From: Euryarchaeota archaeon SCGC AAA252-I15 | Lineage (GTDB): Archaea > Altiarchaeota > Altiarchaeia > IMC4 > SCGC-AAA252-I15 | Reading direction: 5' to 3' | Assembly: GCA_000402775.1 (NCBI GenBank) | Contig: AQSC01000058.1 | Span: 1-49,872 of the forward strand | Length of the DNA: 49,872 nucleotides | Shown here: piece by piece, positions 20,908 to 35,381 of the stretch | How the letters are laid out: the number at the start of each line of letters is the position of its first letter | How positions within the stretch are numbered: the first letter of the stretch is position 1 | Position numbers and translations under genes: made by a program | Notes under the pieces: model-generated | The model's database searches: none | What the model saw: the letters and a program-made list of their open reading frames with translations, nothing else | Told to the model about the DNA's origin: nothing

Positions 20908-20919
20908 AACCATTTTCTT

Positions 20920-21273
20920 TCAAATTTCAACGGAGATTGAAATCAAATTCCAACCCTGTGTCAAGGATGTGTGAGCGTCCACAGTCGAGTATACATCACC
21001 AGTAACTGTACTGTTGAAGAACCCTATGTTTGCAGTATAGTTGCCGCCCAGTGTATTTAGACCGCCCCCGGGTTTATCGGATGCTGTCAAAAAAAATCGG
21101 GCACTATAAGTTTCACCTTCAGCAGTGCCCCCCTGAAGCCCGCTTGTGTGATGTTGCACTGTTGGTTCTCCATTCATAATCAAGATTGCTCCTGCTATTG
21201 AAGCAAGTAAAAAAATCGATGACAATACAATCCTATTCTCTTTGAAAAGCGACTTCATTTTTAAGACTAGCAT
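20920..21273 (-). CDS. Small secreted protein ending in a GWNLIS motif
   Basis: N-terminal hydrophobic segment, Gly-rich beta region, C-terminus LTQGWNLISISVEI. True start may be 21258. Confidence 0.75.
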   Translation of the reverse strand: MLVLKMKSLFKENRIVLSSIFLLASIAGAILIMNGEPTVQHHTSGLQGGTAEGETYSARFFLTASDKPGGGLNTLGGNYTANIGFFNSTVTGDVYSTVDAHTSLTQGWNLISISVEI

Positions 21274-22625
21274 AATCCATCACCATCTACTTGCCACCAG
21301 TTGCTACCATTACAAAAACAGAGTTCGTTGAAGCTATCATCATAGTATATGCTACCTTCTGTATTTGCATTGCAGGTTCCGGGACTGTTGGTTGGCTCAA
21401 GCATCAAGACATTTGATATGTGCACCCTCTGCTGTGGCGTTGTCGTTCCGAATCCTACATTACCTTCTGAATCAACAGTCATATACTTGTCAATCAATAA
21501 ATTAGATCCAATGTGCAGTTTATCTGTATTGTCGTTGTCCAAACCTATTGCATAGATTTCCGTCCCTATTTCACCGCTATTTGTCATAAATGAGATAATT
21601 GCTTCATCATCCGATTTTGAAACCCGGTCTAGGTGGACTCTGGAACTGCCGGTTGATTTCGCTTTAACCCTCAATGTCGGTCCGCCTGTTTTTTGGACAT
21701 CCAAGATATAAGTTGGGTTAAGTACCCCAATGCCGACTTTACCGCCCATAATGGCCATAGTATTGTCTTGCGTTACATTAACCCCGTTTTGGTCGTTCAG
21801 GGCGATCGCCATAGAATAATCTCCACCAGCCTCTATCTCCCGTCCGATTGCGGTGGAATAGTATCCTGAAGCAACCGTGTTTCGTCCGAGTGCAGTGGAA
21901 TAGTACCCTGAGGCGGTAGAATACCACCCTGAAGCGAGCCCATACATCCCTGATGCAGTTGTCCTATACCCTAATGCTGTGGAATACATGTCTGATGCTG
22001 TTGTCTGATACCCTAATGCAGTGGAAGAATAACTTGATGCTGTGGTGTCAAACCCCATCGCGGTTGAATAAGTCCCCGAGGCGGTTGAATTATAACCCAT
22101 GGCTGTGGAATAATCACCTGAAGCGGTTGTTTCATACCCTATAGCAGCAGCATATGTCCCAGGGGAGACCGCATCCACCCCACACACACCTTCGGAACCC
22201 AAAATCTGAGTGCAATTTAATTCTGATTCATTTACATCACTACCTGTAAGACTGTCATCCCTCACATCCTCACCAGAAATGTCACCCAGCGGGCTGTACC
22301 ACATAAGCCTTTCCGAGCCATCAAAGTCCAAGTCAACACTGTTAATCTTGTAGTCCTTGTAGTAGTCCTTGCCGTACTCCAGCGAAACATCCAAGTTCAA
22401 ATTCCAGCTGCCGTTCACAATGGCGTCAGTGAAAGTCGTATTGTATATCACATTGCCACCGGATGCCGCATCCCAGAATTCAATTGTTAGGTTGGCGGAT
22501 TCGACTAACACACCACTATCCCTCACATCCGTGCCCTGGTCTGAAATCGAAACAGACAGGCTGCCACTTGAATAAATACAAAGAAAAAACAAAATCAAAA
22601 CCGAAAACAATATATTTCTTTTCAT
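21267..22625 (-). CDS. Secreted adhesin-like protein with YadA-head-like repeats
   Basis: Signal peptide, Ig-like N-domain, eight 14-aa repeats, GKVGIG and GNVGFGTTTP beta-fibre motifs, Cys-containing C-terminal tip. Confidence 0.8.
   Translation of the reverse strand: MKRNILFSVLILFFLCIYSSGSLSVSISDQGTDVRDSGVLVESANLTIEFWDAASGGNVIYNTTFTDAIVNGSWNLNLDVSLEYGKDYYKDYKINSVDLDFDGSERLMWYSPLGDISGEDVRDDSLTGSDVNESELNCTQILGSEGVCGVDAVSPGTYAAAIGYETTASGDYSTAMGYNSTASGTYSTAMGFDTTASSYSSTALGYQTTASDMYSTALGYRTTASGMYGLASGWYSTASGYYSTALGRNTVASGYYSTAIGREIEAGGDYSMAIALNDQNGVNVTQDNTMAIMGGKVGIGVLNPTYILDVQKTGGPTLRVKAKSTGSSRVHLDRVSKSDDEAIISFMTNSGEIGTEIYAIGLDNDNTDKLHIGSNLLIDKYMTVDSEGNVGFGTTTPQQRVHISNVLMLEPTNSPGTCNANTEGSIYYDDSFNELCFCNGSNWWQVDGDGLC
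21816..22151 (-). repeat. Eight 42-bp coding repeats (STAxGxxTTASGxY)
   Basis: Read directly from the translation, AAAIGYETTASGDY through STAIGREIEAGGDY. Confidence 0.9.
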
Positions 22626-22720
22626 TTAACTCACCTCAAGTATGTAAGTTATCTTATTACAAAAGAAATAAGTGTAAAGGACTTGAACTTTCTCTAGCAT
22701 CCAAGGAGACTAGATTTTTT

Positions 22721-23908: not shown

Positions 23909-23928
23909 TGAGAAGGCTTATCAAATCT

Positions 23929-24274
23929 GCCTCGGTAGCTTAGTATACAACCCCCTTCTTTTTCCCGAAAAAGAAAAGCGTTGACGGAAAAGAAAAATCC
24001 AAAAAAAATATGTGACCCAGAACATAAAATTCTGGCGAATAAACAATACACGCTCAGTGTGGCTAAGCGAGTGAAACAAGCGCACGCCGCACCCGCATGT
24101 GGCCGAACCAAAGGTTCGGACACGTGTCGGACTCAAAGTCCGCCACATGTCAACTGGGCGTTACAGTTGCCTCGGTAGCTCAGGTTGGTCGGACTTAGCC
24201 GACGACTAAGGGGCCATCTTCGCTACCGCTCGATGACCCGGAACAAAACGGTGAGAAAAAGGAAGTAAACTTTT
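23929..24274 (+). ncRNA. Unassigned highly structured leader containing two tRNA-Asn 5' copies
   Basis: GCCTCGGTAGCT at 23929 and 24169; near-continuous helices, including a perfect four-way junction at 24095-24150. Confidence 0.5.
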
Positions 24275-24467
24275 GCCTCGGTAGCTCAGTTGGTGGAGCG
24301 CCTGGCTGTTATGCAGAATTCGTAAAACGACCTAGCACGGTCCGACGCCGGCATCACACCCCCACGAGGGGAGTCGAAGCCAAATGGCTGAAGACAAGCA
24401 CGGAGGTCCCCAATGAATCTCTCGCACAGGAACCAGGCGGTCACAGGTTCAAGTCCTGTCCGGGGCG
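24275..24467 (+). tRNA. tRNA-Asn(GTT) with a 120-nt intron at 37/38 (24312-24431)
   Basis: Acceptor stem GCCTCGG/CCGGGGC; D-stem GCTC/GAGC; anticodon stem CCTGG/CCAGG; T-arm ACAGG-TTCAAGT-CCTGT; BHB helix CTGT/ACAG. Confidence 0.93.
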
Positions 24468-24501
24468 TCCGTGTAAAAAGGGTCGCAGTATAGTGTTTTT
24501 T

Positions 24502-26847
24502 CTAGATAATCAGTGGCAGGCTTATTAGGTTCCAGCCTGCCTGCAAGTTAGTTGAATAGGGTAGTATGGCACAGGAGTAAAAACAGCCTGACGTGGCACT
24601 CTCGTCCCCGTAGTTCTGGGTTGTGTTGCAGTAGTTATGGTCCCCTGTATTTGAGTCATCGTCTGCGATGTCGTAGTAGTCTCCGCCACTCTGGTTGTTC
24701 CCGCAGAAACGGTTATTGTTTAACGTGTTGCCTGTGCTGTTTGCGTCGGCACTGAAACCGTGCTCTTGGTTGCTGCTCCCGGTGTTGCCTATGATGGTGT
24801 TGTTACTCGACGATTCCAAATAGATACCACTATAGGTGTTCTCGTTTGCAGTGTTGTCTGTGATAGTATTATTATGCGACTCGTACAAGTTGGTGCCACC
24901 ATCAGAGTTGTTCGATATATTGTTGCTGATAATGTTATTATACGACACTCCATTTAGGGAGATGCCGCAATCCGTGTTAGATAACACATTATTGCTTGTA
25001 ATGTTGTTTTCCTCTGACCCTTCTATGTAGATGCCATCACCACCGTTAAACGTGACAATATTATCTGAAAGGGTATTGTGGCTGCTAGAATAGATACCAA
25101 CACCAGTGGCATTATTTGAATTCACTGTATTATTTGTTATATTGTTGCCACTCGAATTATCCAAGCTGATGCCACTATCCTTGTTCCCGGTGGCAGTATT
25201 GCCAGTGATCGTGTTATAGTCGCTGGAGGATTCGAGGCAGATACCGGGTTCGTTGTTATTGATTCCATTGTTATTTGTGAGTGTGTTGTTGCTGGATGAA
25301 TCTAGGAAGATGCCTTTGTGGACATTGTTGCTTGCATTATTGTGCGTAAGCGTGTTGTTGTTTGAGGAGAAGAGGGAGATGCCGTCGTCGGAGTTATTGT
25401 TGACTGTATTGTCTGTGACAGTATTATAATTACTGGAATCTTGCAAGGAAATACCGCTCTCATTGTTCGAGTTCGCAGTATTATTTGTGACTGTGTTGTT
25501 GCATGACTCCTGAAACAATTGGATACCACCGTGGTTGTTATTATTCGCGGTGTTGTTGGTGAGGGTATTGTTGTCCGAGTAATCCAGGCAGATTCCCCCC
25601 TCAGCGTTCTCGTTTATTGTGTTGTTTGTGACCGTGTTGTCGTTTGACTCCCACAACCAGATGCCGTGGTTTTCGGTGTTTGAATTAGCAGTATTTCCTC
25701 TAACTATGTTATAGTTGCTCGAATCGCTCAAGCGAATGCCAACGTTGTTCTCGCTGGCGGTGTTGTTTGTGAGAGTGTTATTGCTTGATGATTTCAAGTA
25801 GATACCGTCTCCGTTGTTCTCGTTCACGGTGTTGTTCGTGAGGGTGTTGTTGCTTGATGAGTCAAGGTATATTCCACTAGCATTGTTATTTGATATTGTA
25901 TTCAGCATTATCTCATTGGAGTTGCTTGAGTTGTATACAATGATACCAAACCAACCATTGTTGTTTATAGTATTATCTATTAACTTGTTGTTGTTACTGA
26001 ATGAATGGAGGGTAATGGCATAGACTCCTGTGTTGTTGGATATATCATTACCGGTGAAATTGTTGTTACTGCTAGACAGCAGGGCGACACCCCTAGCATT
26101 CAGGTTTACGGTGTTGTTAACTAAAGTGTTGTTAGTGGATGACTCCATGTAGATTCCAAAACCAAAGGGACCATACTCTGTTTCAGGTGTTGTTGTGTTG
26201 TAGATCTCGTTGTTGGTTAACGTGTTGTTGTGTGCGTCGGCCATGTAAATACCGACAGAAAAGTCTGTTGCAGTTGTGTTAGAAACATAATTGCTGTCCA
26301 CTATGTTGTTGTTAGAACCTATTAAGATAGCAAAAGACATGTCGCCGTAACCGGTATCGATACCTATTGTATCGAATATTGTGTTACCGATGATTCTGTT
26401 GAAGTGAGCGGAGTTCCATAACAAAATAGCCCAGTTTGTGTTGTTAACCCTGTTGTTTGACACATTGTTGTAGCTGGAATTCTCCAAGCATATACCACCC
26501 CCACTATCTAAAAGTGTGTTGTTATCCAACCTGCTGTTGTGCGTCAAGTTAAGATAAATTGCGGAGCCATTGACTGTGTAGCCTGTTATTACGCAATTCG
26601 TTACAGTTACATTATTCCTTCCTTGAGCGAAGATTCCATAGAATTCCTGGTCCCTGGTGTTACCCTCTAGGATGTGGGCATTGCAGTCGAGTGTGATGTC
26701 GTTGGCACCGATTATGAGTGCAGTGCCGTTGCAATTAAGGTCAGCCGTTAATGTCGTGTCTTCCGTGATGATGTCACCGCATGACACTGCACTAGCGTAA
26801 ATAGGTGAGAAAAATAAAACCAAACAAACCAATATTTTTAGCTTCAT
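24502..26847 (-). CDS. Secreted right-handed beta-helix (NosD/PbH1 repeat) protein
   Basis: Signal peptide; VSCGDIITEDTTLTADLNC cap; more than 20 ~22-24-aa NNTLTNNT...GIxL repeats; C-terminus LQAGWNLISLPLII. Confidence 0.92.
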   Translation of the reverse strand: MKLKILVCLVLFFSPIYASAVSCGDIITEDTTLTADLNCNGTALIIGANDITLDCNAHILEGNTRDQEFYGIFAQGRNNVTVTNCVITGYTVNGSAIYLNLTHNSRLDNNTLLDSGGGICLENSSYNNVSNNRVNNTNWAILLWNSAHFNRIIGNTIFDTIGIDTGYGDMSFAILIGSNNNIVDSNYVSNTTATDFSVGIYMADAHNNTLTNNEIYNTTTPETEYGPFGFGIYMESSTNNTLVNNTVNLNARGVALLSSSNNNFTGNDISNNTGVYAITLHSFSNNNKLIDNTINNNGWFGIIVYNSSNSNEIMLNTISNNNASGIYLDSSSNNTLTNNTVNENNGDGIYLKSSSNNTLTNNTASENNVGIRLSDSSNYNIVRGNTANSNTENHGIWLWESNDNTVTNNTINENAEGGICLDYSDNNTLTNNTANNNNHGGIQLFQESCNNTVTNNTANSNNESGISLQDSSNYNTVTDNTVNNNSDDGISLFSSNNNTLTHNNASNNVHKGIFLDSSSNNTLTNNNGINNNEPGICLESSSDYNTITGNTATGNKDSGISLDNSSGNNITNNTVNSNNATGVGIYSSSHNTLSDNIVTFNGGDGIYIEGSEENNITSNNVLSNTDCGISLNGVSYNNIISNNISNNSDGGTNLYESHNNTITDNTANENTYSGIYLESSSNNTIIGNTGSSNQEHGFSADANSTGNTLNNNRFCGNNQSGGDYYDIADDDSNTGDHNYCNTTQNYGDESATSGCFYSCAILPYSTNLQAGWNLISLPLII

Positions 26848-26933
26848 CTTATCAACCCATCGAATGTATTATTTAATCTCTGTTTTAATATCTTTCAAGA
26901 GGAGTCTGTGTACTATGTGCAGCCAGACCGATT

Positions 26934-27028
26934 TTTTATTCTCTAATTCTAATGTATAAGTAGAACAGCGAGATGCTGTTTTGTATGTAAATACCATTGC
27001 GGATGAGTAGACGCCTGTCCGGGGCGAA
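26934..27028 (+). repeat. 95-bp junction element, copy 1, ending in the tRNA-Asn 3' sequence
   Basis: 84/95 identical to 30687-30781 by manual alignment; ends CCTGTCCGGGGCG (27014-27026), equal to tRNA 24455-24467. Confidence 0.9.
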
Positions 27029-27104
27029 ACTTCACTTTTTTTATGCCTGCAGTGATGCGGTTTTAGCTTGAAAATAGGGTTTATCCTTGCAGGGACTTGA
27101 ACCA

Positions 27105-27815
27105 TTAAATTAGACTATTTTGTATTTCTCGTATGACCTTTCTGGTGTTTCTCGTTACTCTTTCGAATACTTTATCCGTTATGCTGAACTCACCTTTTAT
27201 CGAGTTCACGTATTTAGGATCATTTATCACCGAAAGCAATTCTCCAAGATGTTTTTTTATCACATCAACAGGACATCGTTTCAGGTGCTCGATTATCTTT
27301 TTTACTTTTGGTTTCTCGTAGCATAAGATTATTATGTCCCGTTTGTCCGTGAGCCTCATGGAATTGATTTTTAGTGCAATAATCATTTCCCTGTTAGCTA
27401 GCCGGACTTTCGCTTTCGAGTCGGGATGCCAGCCACTTACGGTTCTTGTCTCGGAATTTTTGAAAAGATAATTAAAGGAGTAACTGCTTCCAGTCTGCCT
27501 GGATTTTACTGAATTGGTGAGGATGTCCACACTAACAGGTAACTCCTCCTTCTTCTTGTATTTTCTGAACTCCCCCGCATAGATTTCATCCAAATCCTTT
27601 TTCTCTGTGGTGATTTTGAAGCCCTGAATATTAAGTAGTTCCTCAAAGAACTGTAGTTCATTTTTTGGAATTGTGATGTCTAGGTCAACGGAGAATCTTG
27701 GAAAACCGAAAGCACTTACTGCATATCCCCCTATGAGCACGTACTTTGTTTTTTCGGGAATGGTTCTAAGGAAATAAAAGCACTCATCTTCCCTTTTAAG
27801 TATTTTATCTCTCAT
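27105..27815 (-). CDS. AbiEii-like nucleotidyltransferase (type IV TA toxin candidate)
   Basis: YVLIGGYAV...RFSVDLDI motif; EMIIALKINSMRLTDKRDI. Confidence 0.75.
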   Translation of the reverse strand: MRDKILKREDECFYFLRTIPEKTKYVLIGGYAVSAFGFPRFSVDLDITIPKNELQFFEELLNIQGFKITTEKKDLDEIYAGEFRKYKKKEELPVSVDILTNSVKSRQTGSSYSFNYLFKNSETRTVSGWHPDSKAKVRLANREMIIALKINSMRLTDKRDIIILCYEKPKVKKIIEHLKRCPVDVIKKHLGELLSVINDPKYVNSIKGEFSITDKVFERVTRNTRKVIREIQNSLI

Positions 27816-27824
27816 AGTATATCC

Positions 27825-28475
27825 TCAGTGAGTTATGTGGTGATAATCCTCGAATAAACCTAATTTGTATTGGTTGTCTAAGTACTCTAATGCCGGCTGG
27901 TAAGTTAACTCGTTTTCCTTGCAGAATTTGATGGTCTCTTTCAAGGGAACAACTGGAGTGCCGTCTTTCTTTTCAACCTTGATTTTATTTCTGGGGTGTA
28001 ATACGTAGGTCAACCCGAATAAAGTCCTGCTTTCACCCTCCACGACATACTCTACGTCGTTTTTTTTGAAGAATTCCCGCCAGTATTTCAAATCTTTCTC
28101 CAAGACTTCGATGTGAATGGGCTTGAATCCTCTGGTAAATCCGGTGAAATAATAACCGTCAGTCCATATGCTCACTGCGTCACTTCCGCAGAACGCATAT
28201 TTTCTCTCAGCTTTCTCTATAATACGTTCCTTATCCAAATTTCCCTTGACGATTTCGGATACGAAAACGTGGGGTTCCTTAACAGTATACTGACCCCTCT
28301 CAATTCTATCCAAATAGCCATCACTAACTAGATCATGGACTACCTTCTTGGCTTGGGGACTTGGAAAAATGGAACTAAATTCCCTTAAACTGAATTCCTC
28401 CATTCCAAAAGCCTCCCACAACCAACCGTACAACTTCAAATACATATTCATAATGGTTACTATTATGGTAACCAA
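27825..28475 (-). CDS. Winged-helix AbiEi-like antitoxin candidate
   Basis: N-terminal wHTH ending LVSDGYLDRIERGQY; lies directly upstream of the nucleotidyltransferase. True start may be 28451 or 28445. Confidence 0.65.
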   Translation of the reverse strand: MVTIIVTIMNMYLKLYGWLWEAFGMEEFSLREFSSIFPSPQAKKVVHDLVSDGYLDRIERGQYTVKEPHVFVSEIVKGNLDKERIIEKAERKYAFCGSDAVSIWTDGYYFTGFTRGFKPIHIEVLEKDLKYWREFFKKNDVEYVVEGESRTLFGLTYVLHPRNKIKVEKKDGTPVVPLKETIKFCKENELTYQPALEYLDNQYKLGLFEDYHHITH

Positions 28476-28622
28476 TATTTAAATAGTTATCGCATTTACT
28501 AAAGTGCACATACAATATTTAGACTCTTGCAAGAGCCCTTATATCGAACGGGTAAGACGACGACCCAAAGCGAGGGCCAAACAAAGGTCCCCGCTCACAC
28601 CATTATTAGGGTTGGTTAATTC

Positions 28623-30584
28623 CTAGGTTCTAACTTCAATATATTCCGGATTATTCTTTGCTATCTTACTCAATATTTTTCCCATTTCAGAATTTGCATC
28701 TTTTATTTGAATAACTAAAGTATCCATCGCTCGAGTCAAGGGGATTAACAACCAATTCTTCGCATAATCTTTTCTTCTTTCCTCATAATCCCTCAAGTCT
28801 TTTTGAACAGATACATCCTCGAAAGTTTCTAGTTTATAATTGTAAAATGTATCAAATTCAAAAATTACTGTAATCCAACCCTCTAATCCTCTACAAGAAT
28901 CATATTGTACAATTCTCAATTGGTCAACTTCAGTTGGGAAACTTTGCTTTTTCACTTTCTGAATCGTACCATCCCAAATTGGATATCCCCATTCTTTTAA
29001 AGTATTTGATAATGTGGACCTCTTGGAGTTTCTATCTACCAATTCAGGAGGCACACAGAATAGCATGTCAACGTTCTCATTTTTATCTTGTTTATTAGAT
29101 TTAACTAACTCCTCATGAAACTGTTCAGTATAGTCTCCAAATAGGATAATTATTCTTCCTCCATATAATTCTTCTTGTTTCTCAAGATCCAAATCATCAA
29201 TATTTATTTTTTTTGTGAATTCCATTAAGAACTGTACGATATTTGATTTCTGTCGCATACTTCGTCTTAAGGGAATCACTTGTTTATCCTTTACTATGCG
29301 GGGTTTAGTCCAATTGCAGGGGTCTCCCCCTCGAATCAACTGATCATATCCATCAGCTACTATCACGTTTTTAGGTTGAAACAGTGAGTATATCAGATCT
29401 CTTTCACCTGCTGGCCAATCTTGTGCTTCATCAATCATTATGTAATCCCAATCGAGTAAATCTGGACGATCAAGCATGAGATTTCTTTTTAATTCTGGTT
29501 TCGATTCAATTAGGTGTTTTAATTTGCTAGTATATTCTTTTGGGATGTCTATTGATCCTCCGTAAATTCCATGTTCAAAATCTTCTTTTGTGCGAATACC
29601 TGTAGCATAAAAAAGTTTATACCAGTAACTAGTAAGAGACATTATTTGTATAGATTCATCCACGTCGTCCTTAATTCGCATTTGTGCAAAGAGTCTCCTG
29701 ATATCAGAGATTAAAGCAAGATTGTAAGTTAATATCAATACTCTCTCCAATCTTTCTTTATAAAGTTGATGAGCGATTCTCAATAGTCGGAAGGTTTTTC
29801 CTGTACCACCTCTACCCCTAAATACGAGTAATTGTTTGTGTAATTTTTCACCATACTTCTGGTCTTTTATGATTTCCTGGCATATCTTCTTGACTTTTTC
29901 TTTGTCAAGTCGGGTTAACGCCAATCTTTTCGTCAATAAATCTTTGCAGATTTGAAATGAGTCCCCATCTAAACCAGCACTATAAACTAATTCACTAGAA
30001 TCATATCTTCTTAACGGATACCTCTGACTAAGAATAATTTTCCAAAAATCTGGTACGGTAAAATCTTTGAAAAGTAGATTTATGTCTGTAGGTAACTCCC
30101 CGAAGTCATTACTATTTGAAAATGGGAAGTATATAAGATTCGATAGCCACGGATTCGTTTTAATATGATTTATTAAATAATCTCGAAGAGAATACCTCTG
30201 ATTTCTGTTTTGATGAGTTACCGCTCTTTTTTTACCTTGAGTTGTGACATAAACTTTTGTCCCAATTATTTCAATTTTGTCACTACTATGCTTTTTTACC
30301 TCAATAGCGCAACAAAAATCCCTTATTTTAACATCACTTAACTCTAAACCATGTTCTTCCTTGTAAACTTTGGCCTCAACTCTAGTTTGATAATCCTCTA
30401 AAAAACCTATAATTACAACATCAATATCTTGGGGTAATTGTCCGTAACACTGCACAGAAGGAATAATATATACATTATTTAATGGATTATTCTTCAATGA
30501 TTCGTCCTTCGCAAGGCAATCATAAATTTTTTTTGCAGATTCATATTCAGGGTCATCAATATCTTGAAGTAACGTGATTGTCAT
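28623..30584 (-). CDS. Nuclease (NERD/PD-DExK-like) fused to an SF1 helicase
   Basis: DIDVVIIG...AIEVKKH nuclease motif; GRGGTGKT; DEAQD; CRGLEG; LTRAMD; AT-rich DNA. Confidence 0.8.
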   Translation of the reverse strand: MTITLLQDIDDPEYESAKKIYDCLAKDESLKNNPLNNVYIIPSVQCYGQLPQDIDVVIIGFLEDYQTRVEAKVYKEEHGLELSDVKIRDFCCAIEVKKHSSDKIEIIGTKVYVTTQGKKRAVTHQNRNQRYSLRDYLINHIKTNPWLSNLIYFPFSNSNDFGELPTDINLLFKDFTVPDFWKIILSQRYPLRRYDSSELVYSAGLDGDSFQICKDLLTKRLALTRLDKEKVKKICQEIIKDQKYGEKLHKQLLVFRGRGGTGKTFRLLRIAHQLYKERLERVLILTYNLALISDIRRLFAQMRIKDDVDESIQIMSLTSYWYKLFYATGIRTKEDFEHGIYGGSIDIPKEYTSKLKHLIESKPELKRNLMLDRPDLLDWDYIMIDEAQDWPAGERDLIYSLFQPKNVIVADGYDQLIRGGDPCNWTKPRIVKDKQVIPLRRSMRQKSNIVQFLMEFTKKINIDDLDLEKQEELYGGRIIILFGDYTEQFHEELVKSNKQDKNENVDMLFCVPPELVDRNSKRSTLSNTLKEWGYPIWDGTIQKVKKQSFPTEVDQLRIVQYDSCRGLEGWITVIFEFDTFYNYKLETFEDVSVQKDLRDYEERRKDYAKNWLLIPLTRAMDTLVIQIKDANSEMGKILSKIAKNNPEYIEVRT

Positions 30585-30686
30585 TGTTTCAGCAACGAAA
30601 GTATATTGTATATCTTTTAAAATAACTGAAGAATATCATAAATTAATCTTTTGCTCCGACCAACATCAAACTTGATAGATACACCC

Positions 30687-30781
30687 TTTTATTCTCTGGT
30701 TCTAATGTGTAATCAGAACAGCGAGATGCTGTTTTCGATGTAAATCGTATTGCGGATGAGTAGACGCCTGTCCGAGGCGAA
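30687..30781 (+). repeat. 95-bp junction element, copy 2
   Basis: See copy 1; ends CCTGTCCGAGGCG (30767-30779). Confidence 0.9.
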
Positions 30782-30788
30782 CCTTTGA

Positions 30789-31067
30789 TTAGTCGTGTGG
30801 TAGTTTGTATATTTTGTCGTGGTGTGCGATGCGGACGAATCTCACTAAATCGCCGTCTATTCGGAATGTTATCACAAATGAACCTGCTTGAACACGCCTG
30901 TATCCTGCAAGCGGCCTCCGGAGTGGCTTGTACGCGTTGGGATTTTCAAGTATCTGTAGAATCTTTTTATCCACATGTTCTTGCAGAGACTTGTCTTTTT
31001 TAATAATTTTTCCGTAGTCTTTCCTGAAGTACTCGCTGCGGGCTGGACGATACTTTCTCTCCATCAT
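30789..31067 (-). CDS. RelE/ParE-superfamily toxin
   Basis: 92 aa, basic; FRKDYGK...ILENP...PLAGYRRVQAGSFVITFRI...RIAHHDKIY. Confidence 0.85.
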   Translation of the reverse strand: MMERKYRPARSEYFRKDYGKIIKKDKSLQEHVDKKILQILENPNAYKPLRRPLAGYRRVQAGSFVITFRIDGDLVRFVRIAHHDKIYKLPHD

Positions 31068-31072
31068 ACGCT

Positions 31073-31330
31073 TTACTCAACTGCAGTATGGAGGTCTTTT
31101 AGGAGGTCTCGGCCGCTAGAAAACTCCTTGTACCCGCTTTTCTCAGCCTTTCGCATGGACTCTACGAACTCGGGGTTGATTTCACGTTGCTCGTCCAACT
31201 CATTGCGTAGGCCGCTTCGGACCATCTCTGAAAAGGAATGGTAGACGCCATGCTCTACAAGCGCCTTCGCCTGGTGATACATGCCAACAGGCAAGGAAAT
31301 ATTAACTTTCAGTGTATCCATGATATACAC
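31073..31330 (-). CDS. Ribbon-helix-helix antitoxin
   Basis: KVNISLP...ALVEHGVYHSFSEMVRSGLR; acidic tail; directly upstream of the toxin. Confidence 0.85.
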   Translation of the reverse strand: MYIMDTLKVNISLPVGMYHQAKALVEHGVYHSFSEMVRSGLRNELDEQREINPEFVESMRKAEKSGYKEFSSGRDLLKDLHTAVE

Positions 31331-31395
31331 TACACAAAACTAGAATAAAAACAAAATTAACCCTTTTTGCCTGCAACTCCGGACCCACGCGCAAA

Positions 31396-31412
31396 GTCCA
31401 AGTCCGGGGCGT
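31396..31412 (+). repeat. Degenerate tRNA-Asn 3' copy (att-like)
   Basis: GTCCAAGTCCGGGGCGT matches GTTCAAGTCC[TGTCC]GGGGCGT with one substitution and a 5-nt microhomology deletion. Confidence 0.65.
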
Positions 31413-31475
31413 AACCTTTATTAAATTGGTCGTAATCTGTTGATTTTTTTAAGGGGTTGTATTTCCCCCTCATTT

Positions 31476-31643
31476 TTAACCTGTCAATACTGCTTGCTTC
31501 CATTTGCGCCTGGTTGTGCGGGTTAAAATAAAGAATTTATCAACATCCTCTTGCTTTTCAGGGTCACCGCCCCGCAATCTAATAGCGCTTTTTTCTAAAT
31601 CAGTTAGTTGAGCACATGTTGGTGGCAATCTACCAGAAGTCAT
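31476..31643 (-). CDS. Possible 55-aa ORF
   Basis: MTSGRLPPTCAQLTDLEKSAIRLRGGDPEKQEDVDKFFILTRTTRRKWKQAVLTG; the only sizeable ORF found in this cassette; no family. Confidence 0.3.
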   Translation of the reverse strand: MTSGRLPPTCAQLTDLEKSAIRLRGGDPEKQEDVDKFFILTRTTRRKWKQAVLTG

Positions 31644-31810
31644 TCTTGGCTAAGTATTAAGAACAATAGGATTAAAAGTGAACTCTCAGGTTTCTCGTAG
31701 GAAAAAGTCAAGGACTTGAACTTAATCTAGACTAGAATCTTGTGTTCCCAACCTCTTGAATCCCGTAAAATCAATCTTTCCCCCCCCCTCGTCTCCCGGA
31801 TGTTACTTGT

Positions 31811-31831
31811 GTTCAAGTCCTGTCCGGGGCG
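31811..31831 (+). repeat. Perfect 21-bp tRNA-Asn 3' copy (attR-like)
   Basis: GTTCAAGTCCTGTCCGGGGCG identical to 24447-24467. Confidence 0.95.
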
Positions 31832-31865
31832 AAATTTTTCGTTCGACACCCCAGAGATTATCATA

Positions 31866-33002
31866 TCACATTAATGTCCCGTAGATTAGTCCTGCGATTG
31901 TGCAGAAGACCGTTACGAGAAGAACGTATACAAACGTTTTCTTTGTACCTATGAGACCTCGCACAACGATAACACTGGGAAAAGATAGCACGGGGTCTGC
32001 AAGCAGGTATGCAAGAAGCGGGCCCCGACCCATCCCTTGTTCTAGGAAAAGCTGAGCCATAGGGACCTCAACGAGGGTTGGGAAATACATTACTACGCCA
32101 AACAAAACGGCGAGGAAATTCGCCACGACGCTATTGCCCCCAACATATTGTCCTAGAAAGTTGTCAGGTATCAGGGGATTAATAAAGCCTGCGAAAAAAA
32201 CACCTGCTAGTAGGAGGGGGAAAATCTTCTCGACGAAAGAATATGTTTCTGAAAGCCACGATTCCCTCTCAATTTTGTTAAGCTTCTTTTTTGCCTGCCA
32301 AGCGAGGAAAACAATTAATGCGGCGAGCAGTATGGTCTTTTCTGTTAATCCAAGGCCGTAGGTTCCAACCACAAGTATGGCAAAAAGTGTCAGCAAAAAC
32401 AGTGTTGTTCTATCCTTGAATATCCGCACATACCACTTACTGTCATCTATTTCTATTGGAAGTTCTTGAATCTCCCCATCATCCTCCTTAAATAATCCTG
32501 AAAGAATGAGGCCTATTAAGGTTGCAAACACAATTGATAAAATAATCCTTGCGATTGCAAAGTCCCATCCGATGACGCCGCCTGTGAAGACAATCGCCAT
32601 GATGTTGATTGCGGGGGCTGTGTAGAGGAAGGCGATTGCAGGACCCAACCCAGCACCCCTCTTTTTTATGCCTGCAAACAACGGCAGTACTGTGCATGAA
32701 CAAACTGCAAGGACAAAACCCGCTACCACTGACAGAGGGTATGCCTTCCACTTCGACACCTTATGCCCTAAGTATCTAGTTATATCTTCTTTCGGGACTA
32801 GGGCGGATATCGCCCCCGCGATAAAAAACGCAGGTACCAGGCACGTTAATATGTGGAGTTTTGCGTAGTCGTGGAGCATGAACAGTGCGTTGGTCCAAGG
32901 ATCATCAGATTGCTGCCCGGCCTCGGGGAGGTAATATGGGAGGAAGTATAATGCGAGGAATGCCAGTACCATGAGGGCAAGCTTATTTTTTGTCTGCATC
33001 AT
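31866..33002 (-). CDS. DUF318/ArsP-like permease
   Basis: TCLVPAFFIAGAI, AVCSCTVLPLF, GPAIAFLYTAPAIN, MYFPTLVEVP. Confidence 0.9.
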   Translation of the reverse strand: MMQTKNKLALMVLAFLALYFLPYYLPEAGQQSDDPWTNALFMLHDYAKLHILTCLVPAFFIAGAISALVPKEDITRYLGHKVSKWKAYPLSVVAGFVLAVCSCTVLPLFAGIKKRGAGLGPAIAFLYTAPAINIMAIVFTGGVIGWDFAIARIILSIVFATLIGLILSGLFKEDDGEIQELPIEIDDSKWYVRIFKDRTTLFLLTLFAILVVGTYGLGLTEKTILLAALIVFLAWQAKKKLNKIERESWLSETYSFVEKIFPLLLAGVFFAGFINPLIPDNFLGQYVGGNSVVANFLAVLFGVVMYFPTLVEVPMAQLFLEQGMGRGPLLAYLLADPVLSFPSVIVVRGLIGTKKTFVYVLLVTVFCTIAGLIYGTLM

Positions 33003-33228
33003 TAATCCATTTAACTATCTCTTCCATGGTCGCGATTTTTCCAGAGCATTTAACGTTCCCGTCCAAGACCAATGCGGGAGTCATCATGACGCCGTAGGAG
33101 AGTATCTTGTCCATGTCTTCGACTTTCACAACCTCTGCGTCTGCTCCCATTTCTTCAACTGCTTTTTTTGCGTTCTCCTCAAGTTTTTTGCATTTCGGAC
33201 ATCCAGTACCCAGAATTTCAATCTTCAT
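32983..33228 (-). CDS. Small redox-active disulfide protein (Thioredoxin_3 / MTH895-like)
   Basis: MKIEILGTGCPKC...YGVMMTPALVLDG. Confidence 0.92.
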   Translation of the reverse strand: MKIEILGTGCPKCKKLEENAKKAVEEMGADAEVVKVEDMDKILSYGVMMTPALVLDGNVKCSGKIATMEEIVKWINDADKK

Positions 33229-33240
33229 TTTTTCCTTCCT

Positions 33241-33951
33241 TTATGTTAGTGCGAGTGCGATGAAGTAGAGGCCGACAAGGATGAATATGGCGGCTACTAC
33301 TTTGCGGGATGCTTTTTCCATGACCTGTGTTTTATGCATTATCTTGCCTAGAGACGAGACGCTTTTCACCAAAAGTATGGAGGATATGATTACGGGGAGC
33401 CCTGTTGCGAATGCGAAAACCGATGGAACAAGGATTGCGTCATGGGTTTTGAGAGCCAGTGGGATAAGCATTCCAAAGTATAGTACTGCGCTGAAAGGAC
33501 AAAATGAAATGGCAAAAACCACTCCCAGGAGGAAGCTACCAATATATCCTTTTTCACCCAGTCTTTGTTTCAGATTTTCAAGTCTCGTACCGCCTGATGG
33601 CAAGTTGATTTTTACGGCCTCAATCATCACCAACCCGGCCAAAAGGAGTATCGGTCCGAGAATGATTTCCCCGTATTCTTGGAATACCATTGAGGCTTCC
33701 CTAGAGTTCAAGCCCACATACACTATCAATACCGCTAACAGGGTGTAGGACATCATCCTCCCCAGCGTGTAAAGAATCCCGACAAGTATCGTGTTTTTGC
33801 TGTCGCCTATTCTTCTTGAGATGTATGCGACAGCTGTGATATTTGTTGTCAATGGACATGGGCTCAATGCGGTCATAAGGCCGATGAAGAACGCGGCGAC
33901 AAGTGGTATGTTGCTTGTACCCATTGACTCCATGAAAGACATTATATCCAT
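33241..33951 (-). CDS. ArsG-like / DsbD-like membrane protein
   Basis: ALSPCPLTTNITAV, SFCPFSAVLYFGMLIP. Confidence 0.85.
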   Translation of the reverse strand: MDIMSFMESMGTSNIPLVAAFFIGLMTALSPCPLTTNITAVAYISRRIGDSKNTILVGILYTLGRMMSYTLLAVLIVYVGLNSREASMVFQEYGEIILGPILLLAGLVMIEAVKINLPSGGTRLENLKQRLGEKGYIGSFLLGVVFAISFCPFSAVLYFGMLIPLALKTHDAILVPSVFAFATGLPVIISSILLVKSVSSLGKIMHKTQVMEKASRKVVAAIFILVGLYFIALALT

Positions 33952-33955
33952 TTTA

Positions 33956-34471
33956 CTATTGGTTCAGTTTGGCTTCGATAACGGACTTAAGATAGGACTT
34001 GTATTCCTGTTCATCATTTAATTTGTACCATACTTTTGTGTCTTCCTCCTTGCTGAATCCATTGCTGTTGTAGACTCCAATCATTAACGATGAGCCGCTT
34101 GCCCCGTATTTTTCCGCTAACTCTTTGTTTTCCGATAATTGAATGTTTATGTGGCCGAATTTCAGCCTGCCAGATTCCAACTCATTGTTGAAGTAGGTGT
34201 TCACAGTCTTTTCAGCAAATTCTCCCAGGGTTTTACATGACCAGCACTGGCTTGTTCTGTGAAAATGATAAACCTCAACCCGGACCTGCTGTGAATCCAA
34301 ACCACAGGATTGTGCATTTGGATCACATACTGATTCTGTTTTGACTGGAAGTGTCGTTGTGGTTTGTTTCTCGTTTGTTGTTGTGTTAGAAACGGTGTTT
34401 TGGTTTGTAATGCAACCTGATGCCAAAACCAGCAGTGTGAGAGCCAACAAATAGTAATGCCAATAAGCCAT
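33956..34471 (-). CDS. ArsF-like secreted thioredoxin-fold lipoprotein
   Basis: LASGC signal; VEVYHFHRTSQCWSC...AEKTV...F...GRL. Confidence 0.8.
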   Translation of the reverse strand: MAYWHYYLLALTLLVLASGCITNQNTVSNTTTNEKQTTTTLPVKTESVCDPNAQSCGLDSQQVRVEVYHFHRTSQCWSCKTLGEFAEKTVNTYFNNELESGRLKFGHINIQLSENKELAEKYGASGSSLMIGVYNSNGFSKEEDTKVWYKLNDEQEYKSYLKSVIEAKLNQ

Positions 34472-34475
34472 GCAC

Positions 34476-34497
34476 TATATTAGTAAATTTGAATATA
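34476..34497. promoter_or_regulatory. Palindromic operator TATATT-N10-AATATA (copy 1)
   Basis: Sits in the gap between arsR and the ArsF-like gene; same arms and spacing as 34781-34802. Confidence 0.65.
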
Positions 34498-34506
34498 TAA
34501 ATACAG

Positions 34507-34773
34507 TTATTCTATTTTGCCCGATGTTTCAAGCAGTTTCTTTAAAGCATTATCTGCGAGCCGGTAGTAGACGCTTAAACCGTCTTTGCGATATTTCACA
34601 AGGCCTGCTTCATGCAGTATCTTTAGGTGTGCGCTTGTCGTGGGCTGGCTTTTCCCGGTTGCAGGTATTATCTCGCAAACGCATAGCTCTTTTACAGCCA
34701 ACAATCTGATAATTGTGAGTCTTGTGGGATCTCCCAATGCCTTGAATATCTTGACCTGACGTTCTAAATCCAT
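34507..34773 (-). CDS. arsR: ArsR/SmtB transcriptional repressor
   Basis: FKALGDPTRL, ELCVCEI, SQPTTSAHLKILHEAGLV, YYRL. Confidence 0.93.
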   Translation of the reverse strand: MDLERQVKIFKALGDPTRLTIIRLLAVKELCVCEIIPATGKSQPTTSAHLKILHEAGLVKYRKDGLSVYYRLADNALKKLLETSGKIE

Positions 34774-34780
34774 CAGAAAA

Positions 34781-34802
34781 TATATTTGGATATATGAATA
34801 TA
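34781..34802. promoter_or_regulatory. Palindromic operator TATATT-N10-AATATA (copy 2)
   Basis: Immediately upstream of the arsR start. Confidence 0.65.
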
Positions 34803-34878
34803 AGACCTTATTGTCCCAACATCATTTTAATGCACAGAAACACCATAATTAATGTAAAGGACTTGGACATCTATGTTA

Positions 34879-34894
34879 ACGCCTGTCTGGGGCG
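34879..34894 (+). repeat. Outermost degenerate tRNA-Asn 3' copy
   Basis: ACGCCTGTCTGGGGCG matches ACGCCTGTCCGGGGCG of junction 1 at 15/16; preceded by GGACTTGGAC at 34859. Confidence 0.75.
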
Positions 34895-34988
34895 CAAGCC
34901 CTTTTTCTTTCTTTGAAAAAAGGGAGTGTAGCAATGGAAACAAAGCGTTCATGCGTGTCGGACTGGGGGTTTGAGATATTTCATTTCA

Positions 34989-35381
34989 TCACTTGCAGTA
35001 ACAGATTGTTGGCAGGGCACAGCAGCCCGCACCCGCTGGACGGTACGTACAAGTCCTGCCAGACGAGCAGACTGCTTCCCTGCATGCGCTGGGACTTGGG
35101 TTTCGGACATCATAACATGAAATTTTTTTGATAGTGGTTGACTGGATTGGTTGGATGGTGGTGGTTGTGGTAGTCTGCAGGGTAGTTGTTGTTGAGGTTG
35201 TTGATGAAGTAGTGGTCGTGCTTGTAGTTGTTGTTGAGGAGGTGGTGGATGTTGTAGTTGTGGTGGTTGACGTTGTTGACGTGGAAGTGGTTGATGTCGT
35301 GGTAAAACTAGGATTACTGATACATCCACAAACCGATGCCAGCACCACAAATACAATTAATAATGTTTTTGTTTGTATCAT
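34989..35381 (-). CDS. Thr-rich secreted lipoprotein-like protein with a Cys-rich tip
   Basis: LASVCGC signal, ~45-residue S/T run, six Cys in the last 36 aa. Confidence 0.75.
   Translation of the reverse strand: MIQTKTLLIVFVVLASVCGCISNPSFTTTSTTSTSTTSTTTTTTSTTSSTTTTSTTTTSSTTSTTTTLQTTTTTTIQPIQSTTIKKISCYDVRNPSPSACREAVCSSGRTCTYRPAGAGCCALPTICYCK

What the first reader, a model, noticed from the sequence alone, without database searches (positions are those of the whole stretch)
26934..30781. 95-bp junction element repeated with compensatory mutations around a GNRA loop
The copies at 26934-27028 and 30687-30781 differ at 11 positions. Four of these are paired swaps in one hairpin: GTAT-GTAA-ATAC (26983) vs CGAT-GTAA-ATCG (30736). 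AACAGC/GCTGTT is invariant, and the change near the 3' end falls in the loop of CGCC-N7-GGCG. Changes in the open minus-strand frame are mostly non-synonymous. Selection therefore acts on single-stranded structure: a small RNA antisense to the cassette promoters, or a folded recombination substrate.
Basis: seen in the sequence. Interest (0 to 1): 0.7.

Follow-up and report, generated by a model that had tools for sequence, protein, structure and literature searches.

The report
tRNA-anchored gene-cassette junction repeat
The repeated ~99-bp element marks the far ends of two neighbouring gene cassettes in an array of inserted DNA downstream of a tRNA-Asn gene in a methanogen-type archaeon. Its last 13 bases copy the tRNA's 3' end (the recombination site), and the other 80 bases are a hairpin-forming arm whose pairing has been kept by compensating mutations.

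Summary
The repeat is real: 99 nt at 26934-27032 and 30687-30785, 87/99 identical, sharply bounded, two copies only. The paired swaps are real and unlikely by chance (P about 1e-4 to 3e-3). The substitution pattern preserves a common fold, better on the + strand.

Its 13 nt (CCTGTCCGGGGCG) equal the 3' end of an intron-containing tRNA-Asn(GTT) gene 2.5 kb upstream. Six same-strand copies of this core lie in the 10.4 kb downstream of the tRNA, cutting the region into five integrase-less cassettes:
- NosD-like protein
- helicase + AbiE
- ParDE
- a small ORF
- an ars-like operon

Sister-strain contigs swap one cassette exactly core-to-core. The ParDE cassette occurs elsewhere with other neighbours, and homology stops at the core.

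So the element is an att-type cassette junction: an 80-nt cassette-borne arm plus the tRNA-derived core. The arm is non-coding, is not an integrase fragment, and has no Rfam match. Whether it acts as folded DNA in recombination or as a + strand RNA is undecided. No recombinase was found in the window, and no third sequence variant of the arm was found anywhere.

This is a new member of a known kind. Interest is moderate.

The parts
24275..24467 (+). tRNA-Asn(GTT) gene with a 120-nt intron. It anchors the cassette array. Its last 13 nt (24455-24467) are the core sequence.
   Evidence: Rfam tRNA, 49.3 bits. ARAGORN with introns allowed gives tRNA-Asn(gtt), intron 120. Sequence.
24468..27013 (-). 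Cassette A: a NosD/right-handed beta-helix protein of 781 aa (24502-26847), with its likely promoter at 26848-26933 and arm copy 1 at its upstream end.
   Evidence: Pfam NosD 3.6e-92. Bounded by core copies. In sister strain L025, the left end of a NosD-601 cassette resembles 24447-24537.
26934..27013 (+). Arm, copy 1 (80 nt). Hairpin-forming inverted repeats: 26962-26969/26975-26982 (invariant), 26983-26986/26991-26994 (GTAA loop, two compensated pairs), and a long-range helix 26940-26954/26995-27011. A local helix 26943-26946/26960-26963 is an alternative to the long-range one.
27014..27026 (+). Core copy 1, CCTGTCCGGGGCG, identical to the tRNA-Asn 3' end. With the preceding CG it forms CGCC-TGTCCGG-GGCG: 4-bp inverted repeats around a 7-nt segment.
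   Evidence: (family D4).
27027..30766 (-). Cassette B: AbiEii-like nucleotidyltransferase (27105-27815), AbiEi-like 216 aa (27825-28475), SF1/Schlafen-type helicase of 653 aa (28623-30584), and arm copy 2 at its upstream end. GC is 35-39% against 44-46% in the flanks.
   Evidence: Pfam, PADLOC, composition. The closest helicase homologues are <=57% identical and lie in unrelated contexts.
30687..30766 (+). Arm, copy 2 (80 nt).
   Evidence: An identical copy is in sister-strain contig L025 8944-9042.
30767..30779 (+). Core copy 2, CCTGTCCGAGGCG. Homology of ParDE modules from other genomes to the window ends exactly here.
30780..31398 (-). Cassette C: ParE toxin (30789-31067) and ParD/RHH antitoxin (31073-31330).
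   Evidence: Pfam. The same module at 87-91% DNA identity has different neighbours in L014-L020 and L032.
31399..31411 (+). Core copy 3, CAAGTCCGGGGCG (2 mismatches).
31811..31831 (+). Core copy 4: 21 nt identical to the tRNA-Asn 3' end (GTTCAAGTCCTGTCCGGGGCG). It closes the small cassette D (31412-31818, one 55-aa ORF).
31832..34881 (-). Cassette E: ArsR (34507-34773), a 171-aa protein, DsbD_2, a thioredoxin-like protein and an ArsP-type permease (31866-33002). In sister strain L025 it is replaced exactly, core to core, by a 2.09-kb NosD-601 cassette.
   Evidence: Pfam. Strain comparison.
34882..34894 (+). Core copy 5, CCTGTCTGGGGCG, the last junction before conserved chromosomal DNA. Contigs L021, L022 and L024 end inside it. 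L023, L025 and L026 diverge from the window at its left edge and carry the variants CCTGTCCGGGGCG or CCTGTCCGAGGCG.
27049..27064 (+). Motif GCAGTRATGYGKTTTT about 20 nt to the right of a core. It is also at 24485-24500, and after the cores of the NosD-601 cassette (L025) and of L007. It may be the other-side (P') arm motif or part of a terminator.
   Evidence: 2 matches against 0.23 expected. Sequences.

Best explanation
The two copies are att-type junctions of a tandem array of integrated gene cassettes built up downstream of the tRNA-Asn(GTT) gene.

Each copy has three parts:
- an 80-nt arm belonging to the cassette on its left, that is, the 5' end of that cassette's minus-strand genes;
- a 13-nt core identical to the tRNA's 3' end (T-stem 3' strand, acceptor 3' strand, discriminator);
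- about 6 further shared bases.

How the array forms: a circular cassette carrying arm-core-(P' flank) recombines with the core in the tRNA, or with a core already in the array. The tRNA is regenerated and older cassettes are pushed outward, leaving one core copy at every junction.

In arm-type junctions the core reads CGCC-TGTCCGR-GGCG, that is, short inverted repeats around 7 nt. This is the usual layout of a tyrosine-recombinase core, and the positions that vary between junctions lie inside those 7 nt.

No cassette encodes a recombinase, so they must be moved in trans.

The arm is shared by two cassettes with unrelated cargo. It is non-coding and keeps its inverted repeats complementary through double substitutions. 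I therefore take it to be the cassette-side part of the recombination site, which needs to fold or be bound as a structure, rather than a gene product.

Shown: the identity with the tRNA end; the array of cores; core-to-core cassette replacement between strains; structure-preserving substitutions.
Inferred: the type of recombinase; trans-mobilisation; the crossover position; any role of the arm in recombination.
For: 1. Core equals the tRNA end. CCTGTCCGGGGCG at 27014-27026 is identical to 24455-24467 of tRNA-Asn. Six + strand copies (<=2 mismatches) lie between 24455 and 34894. Only 0.54 matches are expected in the whole window on both strands.

2. Strain variation at cores. L025 is 99.7-99.8% identical to the window on both sides, but has a 2.09-kb NosD-601 cassette where the window has the ars-like cassette. 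The breakpoints are at 34882 and 31833, the edges of two cores. L021, L022 and L024 contigs end inside the 34882 core. L023, L025 and L026 differ at the variable core positions.

3. ParDE modules with >=90%-identical ParE in other assemblies are homologous to the window from 31356 to 30767 and stop at the left edge of the core in copy 2. They are bounded by cores on both sides, and their order relative to a DUF3368/UPF0175 module differs between L016 and L017.

4. The related MAG contig L007 (about 93-98% nt identity across segments) keeps the tRNA plus 38 nt and then diverges. A second tRNA (Tyr) shows the same behaviour.

5. Cassette B has foreign composition.

6. The arm is not coding. There are 6 replacements against 2 silent changes, no start codon in copy 2, and no homologues in 5.8e9 clustered or 1.84e9 representative proteins apart from repeat-protein noise.

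7. Structure-preserving substitutions.

8. Established knowledge. tRNA-targeting islands regenerate the tRNA and leave a displaced fragment at the far end (PMC4383910). Archaeal att identities range from 8-11 bp to 60 bp (PMC8371274). Repeated integration at one tRNA gives arrays with partial tRNAs (bioRxiv 10.1101/2020.12.28.424599).
Against: - No integrase or other recombinase is present in the 50-kb window (Pfam scans).
- Direct strain evidence exists for cassettes C and E and for the tRNA-Tyr site, but not for cassettes A and B, the two that carry the arm.
- Other cassettes use the same core with quite different arms: an AGGACTTGR-N15 class and a T-loop-like class. The 80-nt arm is therefore not required for a junction to exist.
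- Wobble-compatible one-sided changes and the lower energy favour one strand (+). That fits RNA at least as well as folded DNA.
- Only two sequence variants exist, so covariation rests on a handful of events. Template-switch mutation in inverted repeats could mimic compensation.
Confidence: 0.6

Rival explanations
1. The arm plus core is a small non-coding RNA gene transcribed from the + strand. It would diverge from or run antisense to the cassette's upstream region and read towards the junction. It would regulate the cassette, the neighbouring toxin gene, or excision. The tRNA-like 3' end would be part of the RNA.
For: The + strand consensus fold is much better than the minus one (-25.8 against -15.45 kcal/mol) with no pair broken. 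Three one-sided changes (26946 A>G, 26995 C>T, 27022 G>A) are tolerated only as G-U pairs on the + strand. The 4-bp hairpin has a GNRA (GUAA) loop on the + strand only. A T7 run follows copy 1 at 27040-27046. The + strand RNA of copy 2 would run into the 3' end of ParE, 3 nt away.
Against: No promoter-like box lies inside the conserved block. The only shared A/T-rich box to its left (26885-26898 and 30641-30653) has its purine-rich BRE-like side oriented for minus-strand transcription (read by eye). Copy 2 lacks a T-run. Single-sequence z-scores are weak (-1.45 and -1.74). There is no Rfam match even at E<=10. No homologue was found in any collection searched. All genes nearby are on the other strand. 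Expression could not be tested.
Confidence: 0.25
2. The arm is the cassette's own promoter or 5' leader on the minus strand. The palindrome GTATTTACATAC / CGATTTACATCG would be a TATA-like box (ATTTACAT), so that the cargo is expressed wherever the cassette lands.
For: Both copies lie at the upstream end of their cassette's genes. Their left ends are 86 and 102 nt from the start codons. The invariant centre ATTTACAT resembles the archaeal TATA consensus (my reading).
Against: A better BRE/TATA-like motif (GAAAGATATTAAAA and CAAAAGATTAATTTA) lies closer to both genes, outside the repeat. A TATA box does not predict complementary changes on its two flanks (P about 0.003 for the adjacent double). 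Two wobble pairs become C-A mismatches on the minus strand.
Confidence: 0.1
3. The repeat is a decaying remnant with no present function: a leftover of a duplicated or once-larger element, for example the split halves of an SSV-type integrase gene that spans its att site. The apparent compensation would come from chance or from template-switch mutation in inverted repeats.
For: A minus-strand frame is open through the core in both copies, and gene callers annotate a 78-aa ORF over copy 1. Only two variants exist. The differences are clustered (four multi-base clusters), as template switching would give.
Against: The ORF has no homologue and no integrase similarity in word-indexed or exhaustive phmmer searches. 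The only hits are tandem-repeat proteins. Both copies end at the same sharp left boundary next to unrelated cargo, which two independent deletions would not produce. The chance probability of the compensation pattern is 1e-4 to 3e-3.
Confidence: 0.07

Closest known systems
attL/attR junctions of genomic islands and integrative elements that target the 3' end of tRNA genes (tyrosine integrases; Islander-type islands; archaeal pNOB8-type/classical integrases)
   Same: A direct repeat identical to the tRNA 3' end and running to the end of the gene. The tRNA stays intact. Displaced fragments mark the ends of foreign, strain-variable DNA. Element-borne sequence (the arm) lies next to the core. The core has short inverted repeats around about 7 nt.
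   Different: No integrase in or near any of the five modules. The modules are very small (0.4-3.7 kb). The arm shows structure-preserving substitutions, which is not a known property of att arms. Different cassettes share the core but have unrelated arms.
Tandem accretion arrays at one tRNA site: tycheposons of Prochlorococcus (bioRxiv 10.1101/2020.12.28.424599), and ICE/IME/CIME accretion in streptococci (from my own knowledge)
   Same: Successive integrations at the same tRNA push older elements outward. Partial tRNAs are scattered through the island. Integrase-less, att-flanked units (CIME-like) are presumably mobilised in trans. Cargo consists of defence and adaptive genes. Strains differ in content.
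   Different: The host is an archaeon with an intron-containing tRNA. No hallmark replication or integration genes are seen. Units are single operons. The arm family is unrelated in sequence.
Integron attC sites and chromosomal cassette arrays, including the integrons reported in Archaea (PMC9668308)
   Same: An array of small, mostly promoter-proximal, co-oriented cassettes rich in toxin-antitoxin modules. A site of about 100 nt is attached to unrelated cargo. Conservation appears to be of pairing rather than sequence. One strand folds better. The fold has a long imperfect helix with bulges enclosing a branched tip.
   Different: No intI or attI. No R''/R' (RYYYAAC/GTTRRRY) boxes. The site lies upstream of the cargo genes, not downstream. 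The crossover maps to a tRNA-derived core beside the folded part rather than inside it. Most junctions in the array lack this arm.
SSV-type ('suicidal') archaeal integrases, whose gene spans attP and is split into int(N)/int(C) on integration (PMC8371274)
   Same: Archaeal host, tRNA target, and an open reading frame running through the core.
   Different: The frame has no similarity to any integrase. It is only about 30 codons long on the arm side and evolves without protein-level constraint.

Membership tests
att junction of a tRNA-targeting integrative element | A direct repeat identical to part of a tRNA gene, extending to the gene's 3' end, in the same orientation as the intact gene | tested here: met
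   13/13 nt (copy 1) and 12/13 nt (copy 2) match tRNA-Asn 24455-24467. Another junction matches over 21 nt. Six same-strand copies against 0.54 expected.
att junction of a tRNA-targeting integrative element | DNA between the repeats is present, absent or replaced among close relatives, with breakpoints at the repeats | tested here: met
   Met for cassette E (L025 against the window, breakpoints at 34882 and 31833), for cassette C (L014-L020, L032; breakpoint at 30767), and for the tRNA-Tyr site (L007). Not available for cassettes A and B themselves.
att junction of a tRNA-targeting integrative element | An integrase or recombinase gene in the element or next to it | tested here: not met
   Pfam scans of all array genes and of the larger ORFs of the 50-kb window found none. 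Small resolvase-domain ORFs occur only in the sister loci L016 and L017.
att junction of a tRNA-targeting integrative element | Excised circular form and restored empty site | not testable with these tools
Integron attC site | Association with an intI integrase gene and an attI site | tested here: not met
   No tyrosine recombinase in the window (same calls as above).
Integron attC site | Inverse core sites R'' (RYYYAAC) and R' (GTTRRRY) at the two ends, pairing in one long imperfect hairpin with extrahelical bases | tested here: not met
   Neither end of the 99 nt carries these boxes (read). The fold is a bulged long-range helix plus two or three small hairpins and a separate core hairpin.
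Integron attC site | Structure rather than sequence is conserved among sites of one array | tested here: inconclusive
   The two arm copies keep their pairing. The other four junctions of the array have unrelated arms, and no common fold was established.
Split SSV-type integrase gene (int(N)/int(C)) | The ORF through the att core is homologous to the integrase | tested here: not met
   The 78-aa ORF over copy 1 finds only itself among 5.8e9 clusters. The exhaustive phmmer search finds only tandem-repeat proteins.
Known non-coding RNA family (Rfam 15) | A match to a curated covariance model | tested here: not met
   No hit at gathering score. At E<=10 only CRISPR-DR42 (E 2.2) and TLS-PK6 (E 5.3) appear, both noise.
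Small RNA gene (generic) | A discrete transcript with its own promoter and terminator | not testable with these tools
   No RNA-seq access. By eye there is no conserved promoter inside the repeat, and a T-run follows copy 1 only.

The most novel reading that the evidence does not exclude
These archaea may have an integron-like gene-cassette system anchored at tRNA genes. Small integrase-less cassettes (toxin-antitoxin, defence, surface-protein, metal-resistance) would each carry a structured recombination site of about 100 nt, made of a folded arm abutting a tRNA-derived core. A recombinase encoded elsewhere would insert, excise and shuffle them, with the arm recognised as a folded single strand. 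That would make the arm a functional analogue of attC with a different architecture.
Probability: 0.15. Interest if true: 0.8.

Novelty: new member of a known kind. Interest (0 to 1): 0.5.

Why it matters
The finding turns an unexplained 'repeat with compensatory mutations' into a defined object: the junction of a strain-variable cassette array at a tRNA gene in an uncultured methanogen- or methanotroph-type archaeon. Such arrays show how these organisms acquire and exchange defence, toxin-antitoxin and surface genes. There are concrete breakpoints and a 13-nt core that can be searched for.

The unusual part is an att-side arm whose pairing, not its sequence, has been kept. If that reflects folding during recombination, it would extend structure-dependent recombination, known so far from integron attC sites and a few phages, to archaeal tRNA-anchored cassettes. 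If it reflects an RNA, it is a cassette-borne regulator. Either reading can be tested with simple constructs.

Tried and rejected
**More copies**
- Exact 19-21-mers from both invariant blocks are absent from genome contigs, metagenome contigs and viral contigs.
- The second metagenome scan gave three hits, all in unrelated coding DNA.
- blastn against the plasmid and phage collections found nothing.
- nhmmer and a covariance model built from the two copies found no third copy in the window or in the loci searched with each.
- A weak nhmmer hit at 22004-22083 inside the YadA-like gene was judged chance.

**Coding potential**
- The 78-aa ORF has no real homologues.
- The phmmer hits P0131-P0133 are tandem-repeat proteins, apparently unrelated, with significance inflated by repetition.

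**Cargo-linked search**
- The closest helicase homologues are <=57% identical. The three looked up (49-57%, loci L008-L013) sit in other contexts without the element.

**Integrating virus or plasmid with this att**
- The 21-nt tRNA end occurs in two IMG/VR contigs. Both are T7-like bacterial phages carrying an ordinary tRNA gene.
- Core-plus-flank patterns gave nothing, or one chance hit inside a long ORF on a viral contig.

**Other readings**
- tRNA-like or pseudo-tRNA reading of the whole element: no tRNA model hit even at E<=10.
- Other junctions of the array do not share the 80-nt arm.
- The sigma-70 promoter/terminator scanner was not used, because the host is an archaeon.

Full report
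**1. The observation**

The window holds one two-copy direct repeat of 99 nt, at 26934-27032 and 30687-30785, with 87/99 positions identical. Aligning 420 nt around each copy shows sharp edges: the similarity starts and stops abruptly. A 25-mer from the element occurs exactly twice, against 0 expected.

The 12 differences are at 26945, 26946, 26956, 26960, 26961, 26983, 26984, 26993, 26994, 26995, 27022 and 27029. The swaps GTAT-GTAA-ATAC and CGAT-GTAA-ATCG, the invariant AACAGC-GAGAT-GCTGTT, and the change between CGCC and GGCG are all as described.

A minus-strand frame is open through both copies. It shows 6 amino-acid replacements against 2 silent changes, and copy 2 has no start codon.

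**2. Is the compensation more than chance?**

Three Watson-Crick pairs changed on both sides and stayed paired: 26983/26994 (GC to CG), 26984/26993 (TA to GC), and 26945/26961 (AT to GC, in a local helix 26943-46/26960-63).

- I scattered the same number of substitutions at random, singly or in the observed clusters. The probability of three or more such pairs in helices of at least 4 bp is about 1e-4. The probability of an adjacent double is about 0.003. A looser criterion that allows G-U pairs gives 0.008-0.04.
- RNAalifold on the two copies gives a + strand consensus of -25.8 kcal/mol with 31 pairs and none broken. It consists of a long-range helix 26940-54/26995-27011, two enclosed hairpins, and a 3' hairpin. 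Three one-sided changes are all wobble-compatible. The minus strand gives -15.45 kcal/mol.
- Against a null that keeps the substitution spectrum but randomises positions, the + strand value is reached in 0.1-0.3% of trials. The minus-strand value is reached in 0.1% and 9% of trials.
- Single-sequence z-scores are unremarkable.

So the substitutions are structure-preserving, and the + strand is favoured but not proven. The local helix holding the third compensated pair competes with the long-range helix, so the 5' part of the fold is ambiguous.

**3. What the third 'hairpin' is**

The host is an archaeon of methanogen type.
- It has formylmethanofuran:H4MPT formyltransferase, Rnf subunits and intron-containing tRNAs.
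- The nearest genome record is a 'Methanobacteriota archaeon' MAG.
- ARAGORN with introns allowed finds tRNA-Tyr(GTA) at 20777-20907 and tRNA-Asn(GTT) at about 24275-24467.

The last 13 nt of tRNA-Asn, CCTGTCCGGGGCG (T-stem 3' strand, acceptor 3' strand, discriminator), are identical to 27014-27026 in copy 1 and differ by one base from 30767-30779 in copy 2.

The same core recurs on the + strand at 31399 (2 mismatches), 31819 (inside a 21-nt exact copy of the tRNA end, 31811-31831) and 34882 (1 mismatch). That makes six same-strand copies within 10.4 kb downstream of the tRNA. Only 0.54 matches are expected in the whole window on both strands.

The G/A position is one of two positions that vary among junctions generally.

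**4. The array**

The cores cut the region into five modules, all with minus-strand genes:
- A (24468-27013): a 781-aa NosD/beta-helix protein.
- B (27027-30766): an AbiEii-like nucleotidyltransferase, an AbiEi-like protein and an SF1/Schlafen-type helicase.
- C (30780-31398): ParD and ParE.
- D (31412-31818): one 55-aa ORF.
- E (31832-34881): ArsR, a 171-aa protein, DsbD_2, a thioredoxin-like protein and an ArsP-type permease.

Module B has 35-39% GC against 44-46% in the flanks. No module, and no ORF scanned in the window, encodes a recombinase.

The two 99-nt copies are the right-hand junctions of A and B. Their 80-nt arms lie at the upstream ends of those cassettes' genes, 86 and 102 nt from the start codons. 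The cores abut the 3' ends of the next cassettes: 72 nt from the AbiEii stop codon and 3 nt from the ParE stop codon.

**5. Evidence that cores are real breakpoints**

(a) Sister-strain contigs found through 90%-cluster members of a flanking 175-aa protein.
- L021, L022 and L024 (99.4-99.9% identical to the window) end at 34891, inside a core.
- L023, L025 and L026 are collinear down to 34882 and then differ.
- L025 then carries a 2.09-kb cassette with a 601-aa NosD-like protein and rejoins the window at 31833, continuing at 99.7% identity through ParDE, copy 2 and into the helicase gene.
- So cassette E is replaced exactly core-to-core.
- At this junction the core reads CCTGTCTGGGGCG (window), CCTGTCCGGGGCG (L025, L026) or CCTGTCCGAGGCG (L023), while the adjoining chromosome is 99.8-99.9% identical.

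(b) ParE variants >=90% identical occur on contigs L014-L020 and L032.
- DNA homology to the window runs from 31356 to 30767 and stops at the left edge of the core in copy 2.
- On the far side these modules end in another core, after which L014/L016 and L017/L019 diverge at once.
- The order of the ParDE and DUF3368/UPF0175 modules differs between L016 and L017.

(c) The related MAG contig L007 keeps tRNA-Asn plus 38 nt and then diverges. At tRNA-Tyr it carries a different 1.5-kb insert bounded by a repeat of that tRNA's last 11 nt.

In every comparison the sequence left of a core travels with the left-hand cassette. The arm therefore belongs to cassettes A and B.

**6. What the arm is not**

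- It is not a protein or an integrase fragment. The 78-aa ORF over copy 1 finds only itself among 5.8e9 clusters. In an exhaustive phmmer search of 1.84e9 representatives it finds only tandem-repeat proteins, whose score is inflated by repetition.
- It is not a known RNA family.
- It is not in the plasmid or phage collections.
- It is not shared by the other junctions. Those have either a T-loop-like arm or an AGGACTTGR-N15-CCTGTC arm, the latter seen at 34858, in L014-L016 and in L032.
- No third sequence variant was found anywhere.

**7. Mechanism, with basis**

Established knowledge:
- Elements that integrate into tRNA genes carry the 3' part of the gene, regenerate it, and leave a displaced fragment at the island's far end (PMC4383910).
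- Archaeal att identities range from 8-11 bp to 60 bp (PMC8371274).
- Repeated integrations at one tRNA give arrays with partial tRNAs (bioRxiv 10.1101/2020.12.28.424599).

Shown here: the identity with the tRNA end, the array of cores, and cassette replacement and reshuffling at the cores.

Inferred:
- A tyrosine-type recombinase encoded elsewhere acts in trans.
- The crossover lies in TGTCCGR, flanked by the CGCC/GGCG inverted repeats. The two polymorphic positions fall there.
- The arm is the cassette-side part of attP.

The arm's pairing has been kept while its sequence changed, and a single trans-acting protein would not favour symmetric sequence change in a double-stranded binding site. 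I therefore favour a role that needs folding (single-stranded DNA or RNA) over plain duplex binding. I place the recombination-site reading ahead of the small-RNA reading for two reasons. The conserved block ends together with the core in both copies. It also contains no promoter-like box, and only one copy has a terminator-like T-run. This preference is weak.

A shared motif GCAGTRATGYGKTTTT lies about 20 nt to the right of several cores (sequences). It may be the opposite arm or a terminator.

**8. Comparison and novelty**

The element works like, and passes the sequence-level tests for, an att junction of a tRNA-targeting integrative element in a tandem array. It fails the integrase-presence test, which places the cassettes with integrase-less, att-flanked, trans-mobilised units.

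It resembles integron attC sites in context and in conservation of pairing. However, it lacks intI, the R/L boxes and the attC position relative to cargo.

I rate it a new member of a known kind, with an unexplained structural signal in the arm.

**9. Limits**

- There are only two arm variants.
- There is no expression or read-level data.
- There is no recombinase.
- There is no strain evidence for cassettes A and B individually.
- JGI contig L002 ends in the middle of copy 2, although the two copies share only 26 nt exactly. This hints at a further variant but was not resolved.

Noticed in passing
window 20777-22715; L007 1713-3217: tRNA-Tyr(GTA), with a 56-nt intron, is a second integration site. 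The window has a 1.8-kb cassette with a YadA-head-repeat protein (21267-22625). The related MAG has a different 1.5-kb insert bounded by a repeat of the tRNA's last 11 nt (GGGAGACGGGA). The window's distal copy is degenerate (GGAGACTAGA, about 22705).
   Followed up: partly
window 23927-23943, 24167-24183, 24273-24289: The 5' end of tRNA-Asn (TTGCCTCGGTAGCTCAG) is repeated twice upstream of the gene, in the same orientation. This suggests past rearrangements or integrations on the 5' side as well.
   Followed up: no
window 34858-34887; L014 9659-9688; L016 5521-5550; L032 619-648: A second class of junction arm, AGGACTTGR-N15-CCTGTC. The motif is the reverse complement of the tRNA T-loop region (GTTCAAGTCCT). 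It lies at a fixed distance from the core in three independent cassettes. Isolated copies of the motif are at 22674-22688, 27095-27107 and 31707-31721.
   Followed up: partly
L017 463-577 and 2501-2617; L016 6273-6389 and 7209-7281: The sister loci carry a different junction repeat of about 85-117 nt (AACACCATTTTTGGC.TGTTTACCCCACC...CCCACGTGTTT, 81-86% identical). It lies at the ends of the DUF3368/UPF0175 and Resolvase/DUF6036 modules. This is another cassette-boundary element family.
   Followed up: no
window 20875 and 30737 (ends of contig L002); 31788 (ends of L001, L005); 34891 (ends of L021, L022, L024); 24505 (end of L007): Independent metagenome contigs tend to end at or near tRNA genes, cores or the arm. 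This fits population heterogeneity at these junctions. The L002 end in the middle of copy 2 is not explained by the 26-nt identity between the copies.
   Followed up: partly
window 31781-31789; L025 about 7930: A homopolymer C9 run just left of the 21-nt core is C11 in the sister strain. Two contigs end there.
   Followed up: no
window 5141-9608: A separate defence or mobile-looking islet: a type IIG Eco57I/MmeI-like restriction-modification enzyme (987 aa), a 228-aa protein of unknown function and a BRO-N domain protein.
   Followed up: no
window 24766-26497 and 35182-35310: There are internal coding repeats. Units of about 69 nt are in the NosD-like gene (11 copies of a 60-nt family). A short-period GTTGTT-rich tandem tract lies in the ORFs at 34949-35381.
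   Followed up: no
window 31357-31503 and 26869-27105: Gene callers annotate small ORFs (48 aa and 78 aa) that run straight through cores. The 78-aa ORF has no homologues beyond itself and is probably spurious. The 48-aa ORF was not searched.
   Followed up: partly
window 22004-22083: A weak nhmmer similarity to the 99-nt element (E 8e-4) lies inside the YadA-like coding region. I judged it chance.
   Followed up: partly
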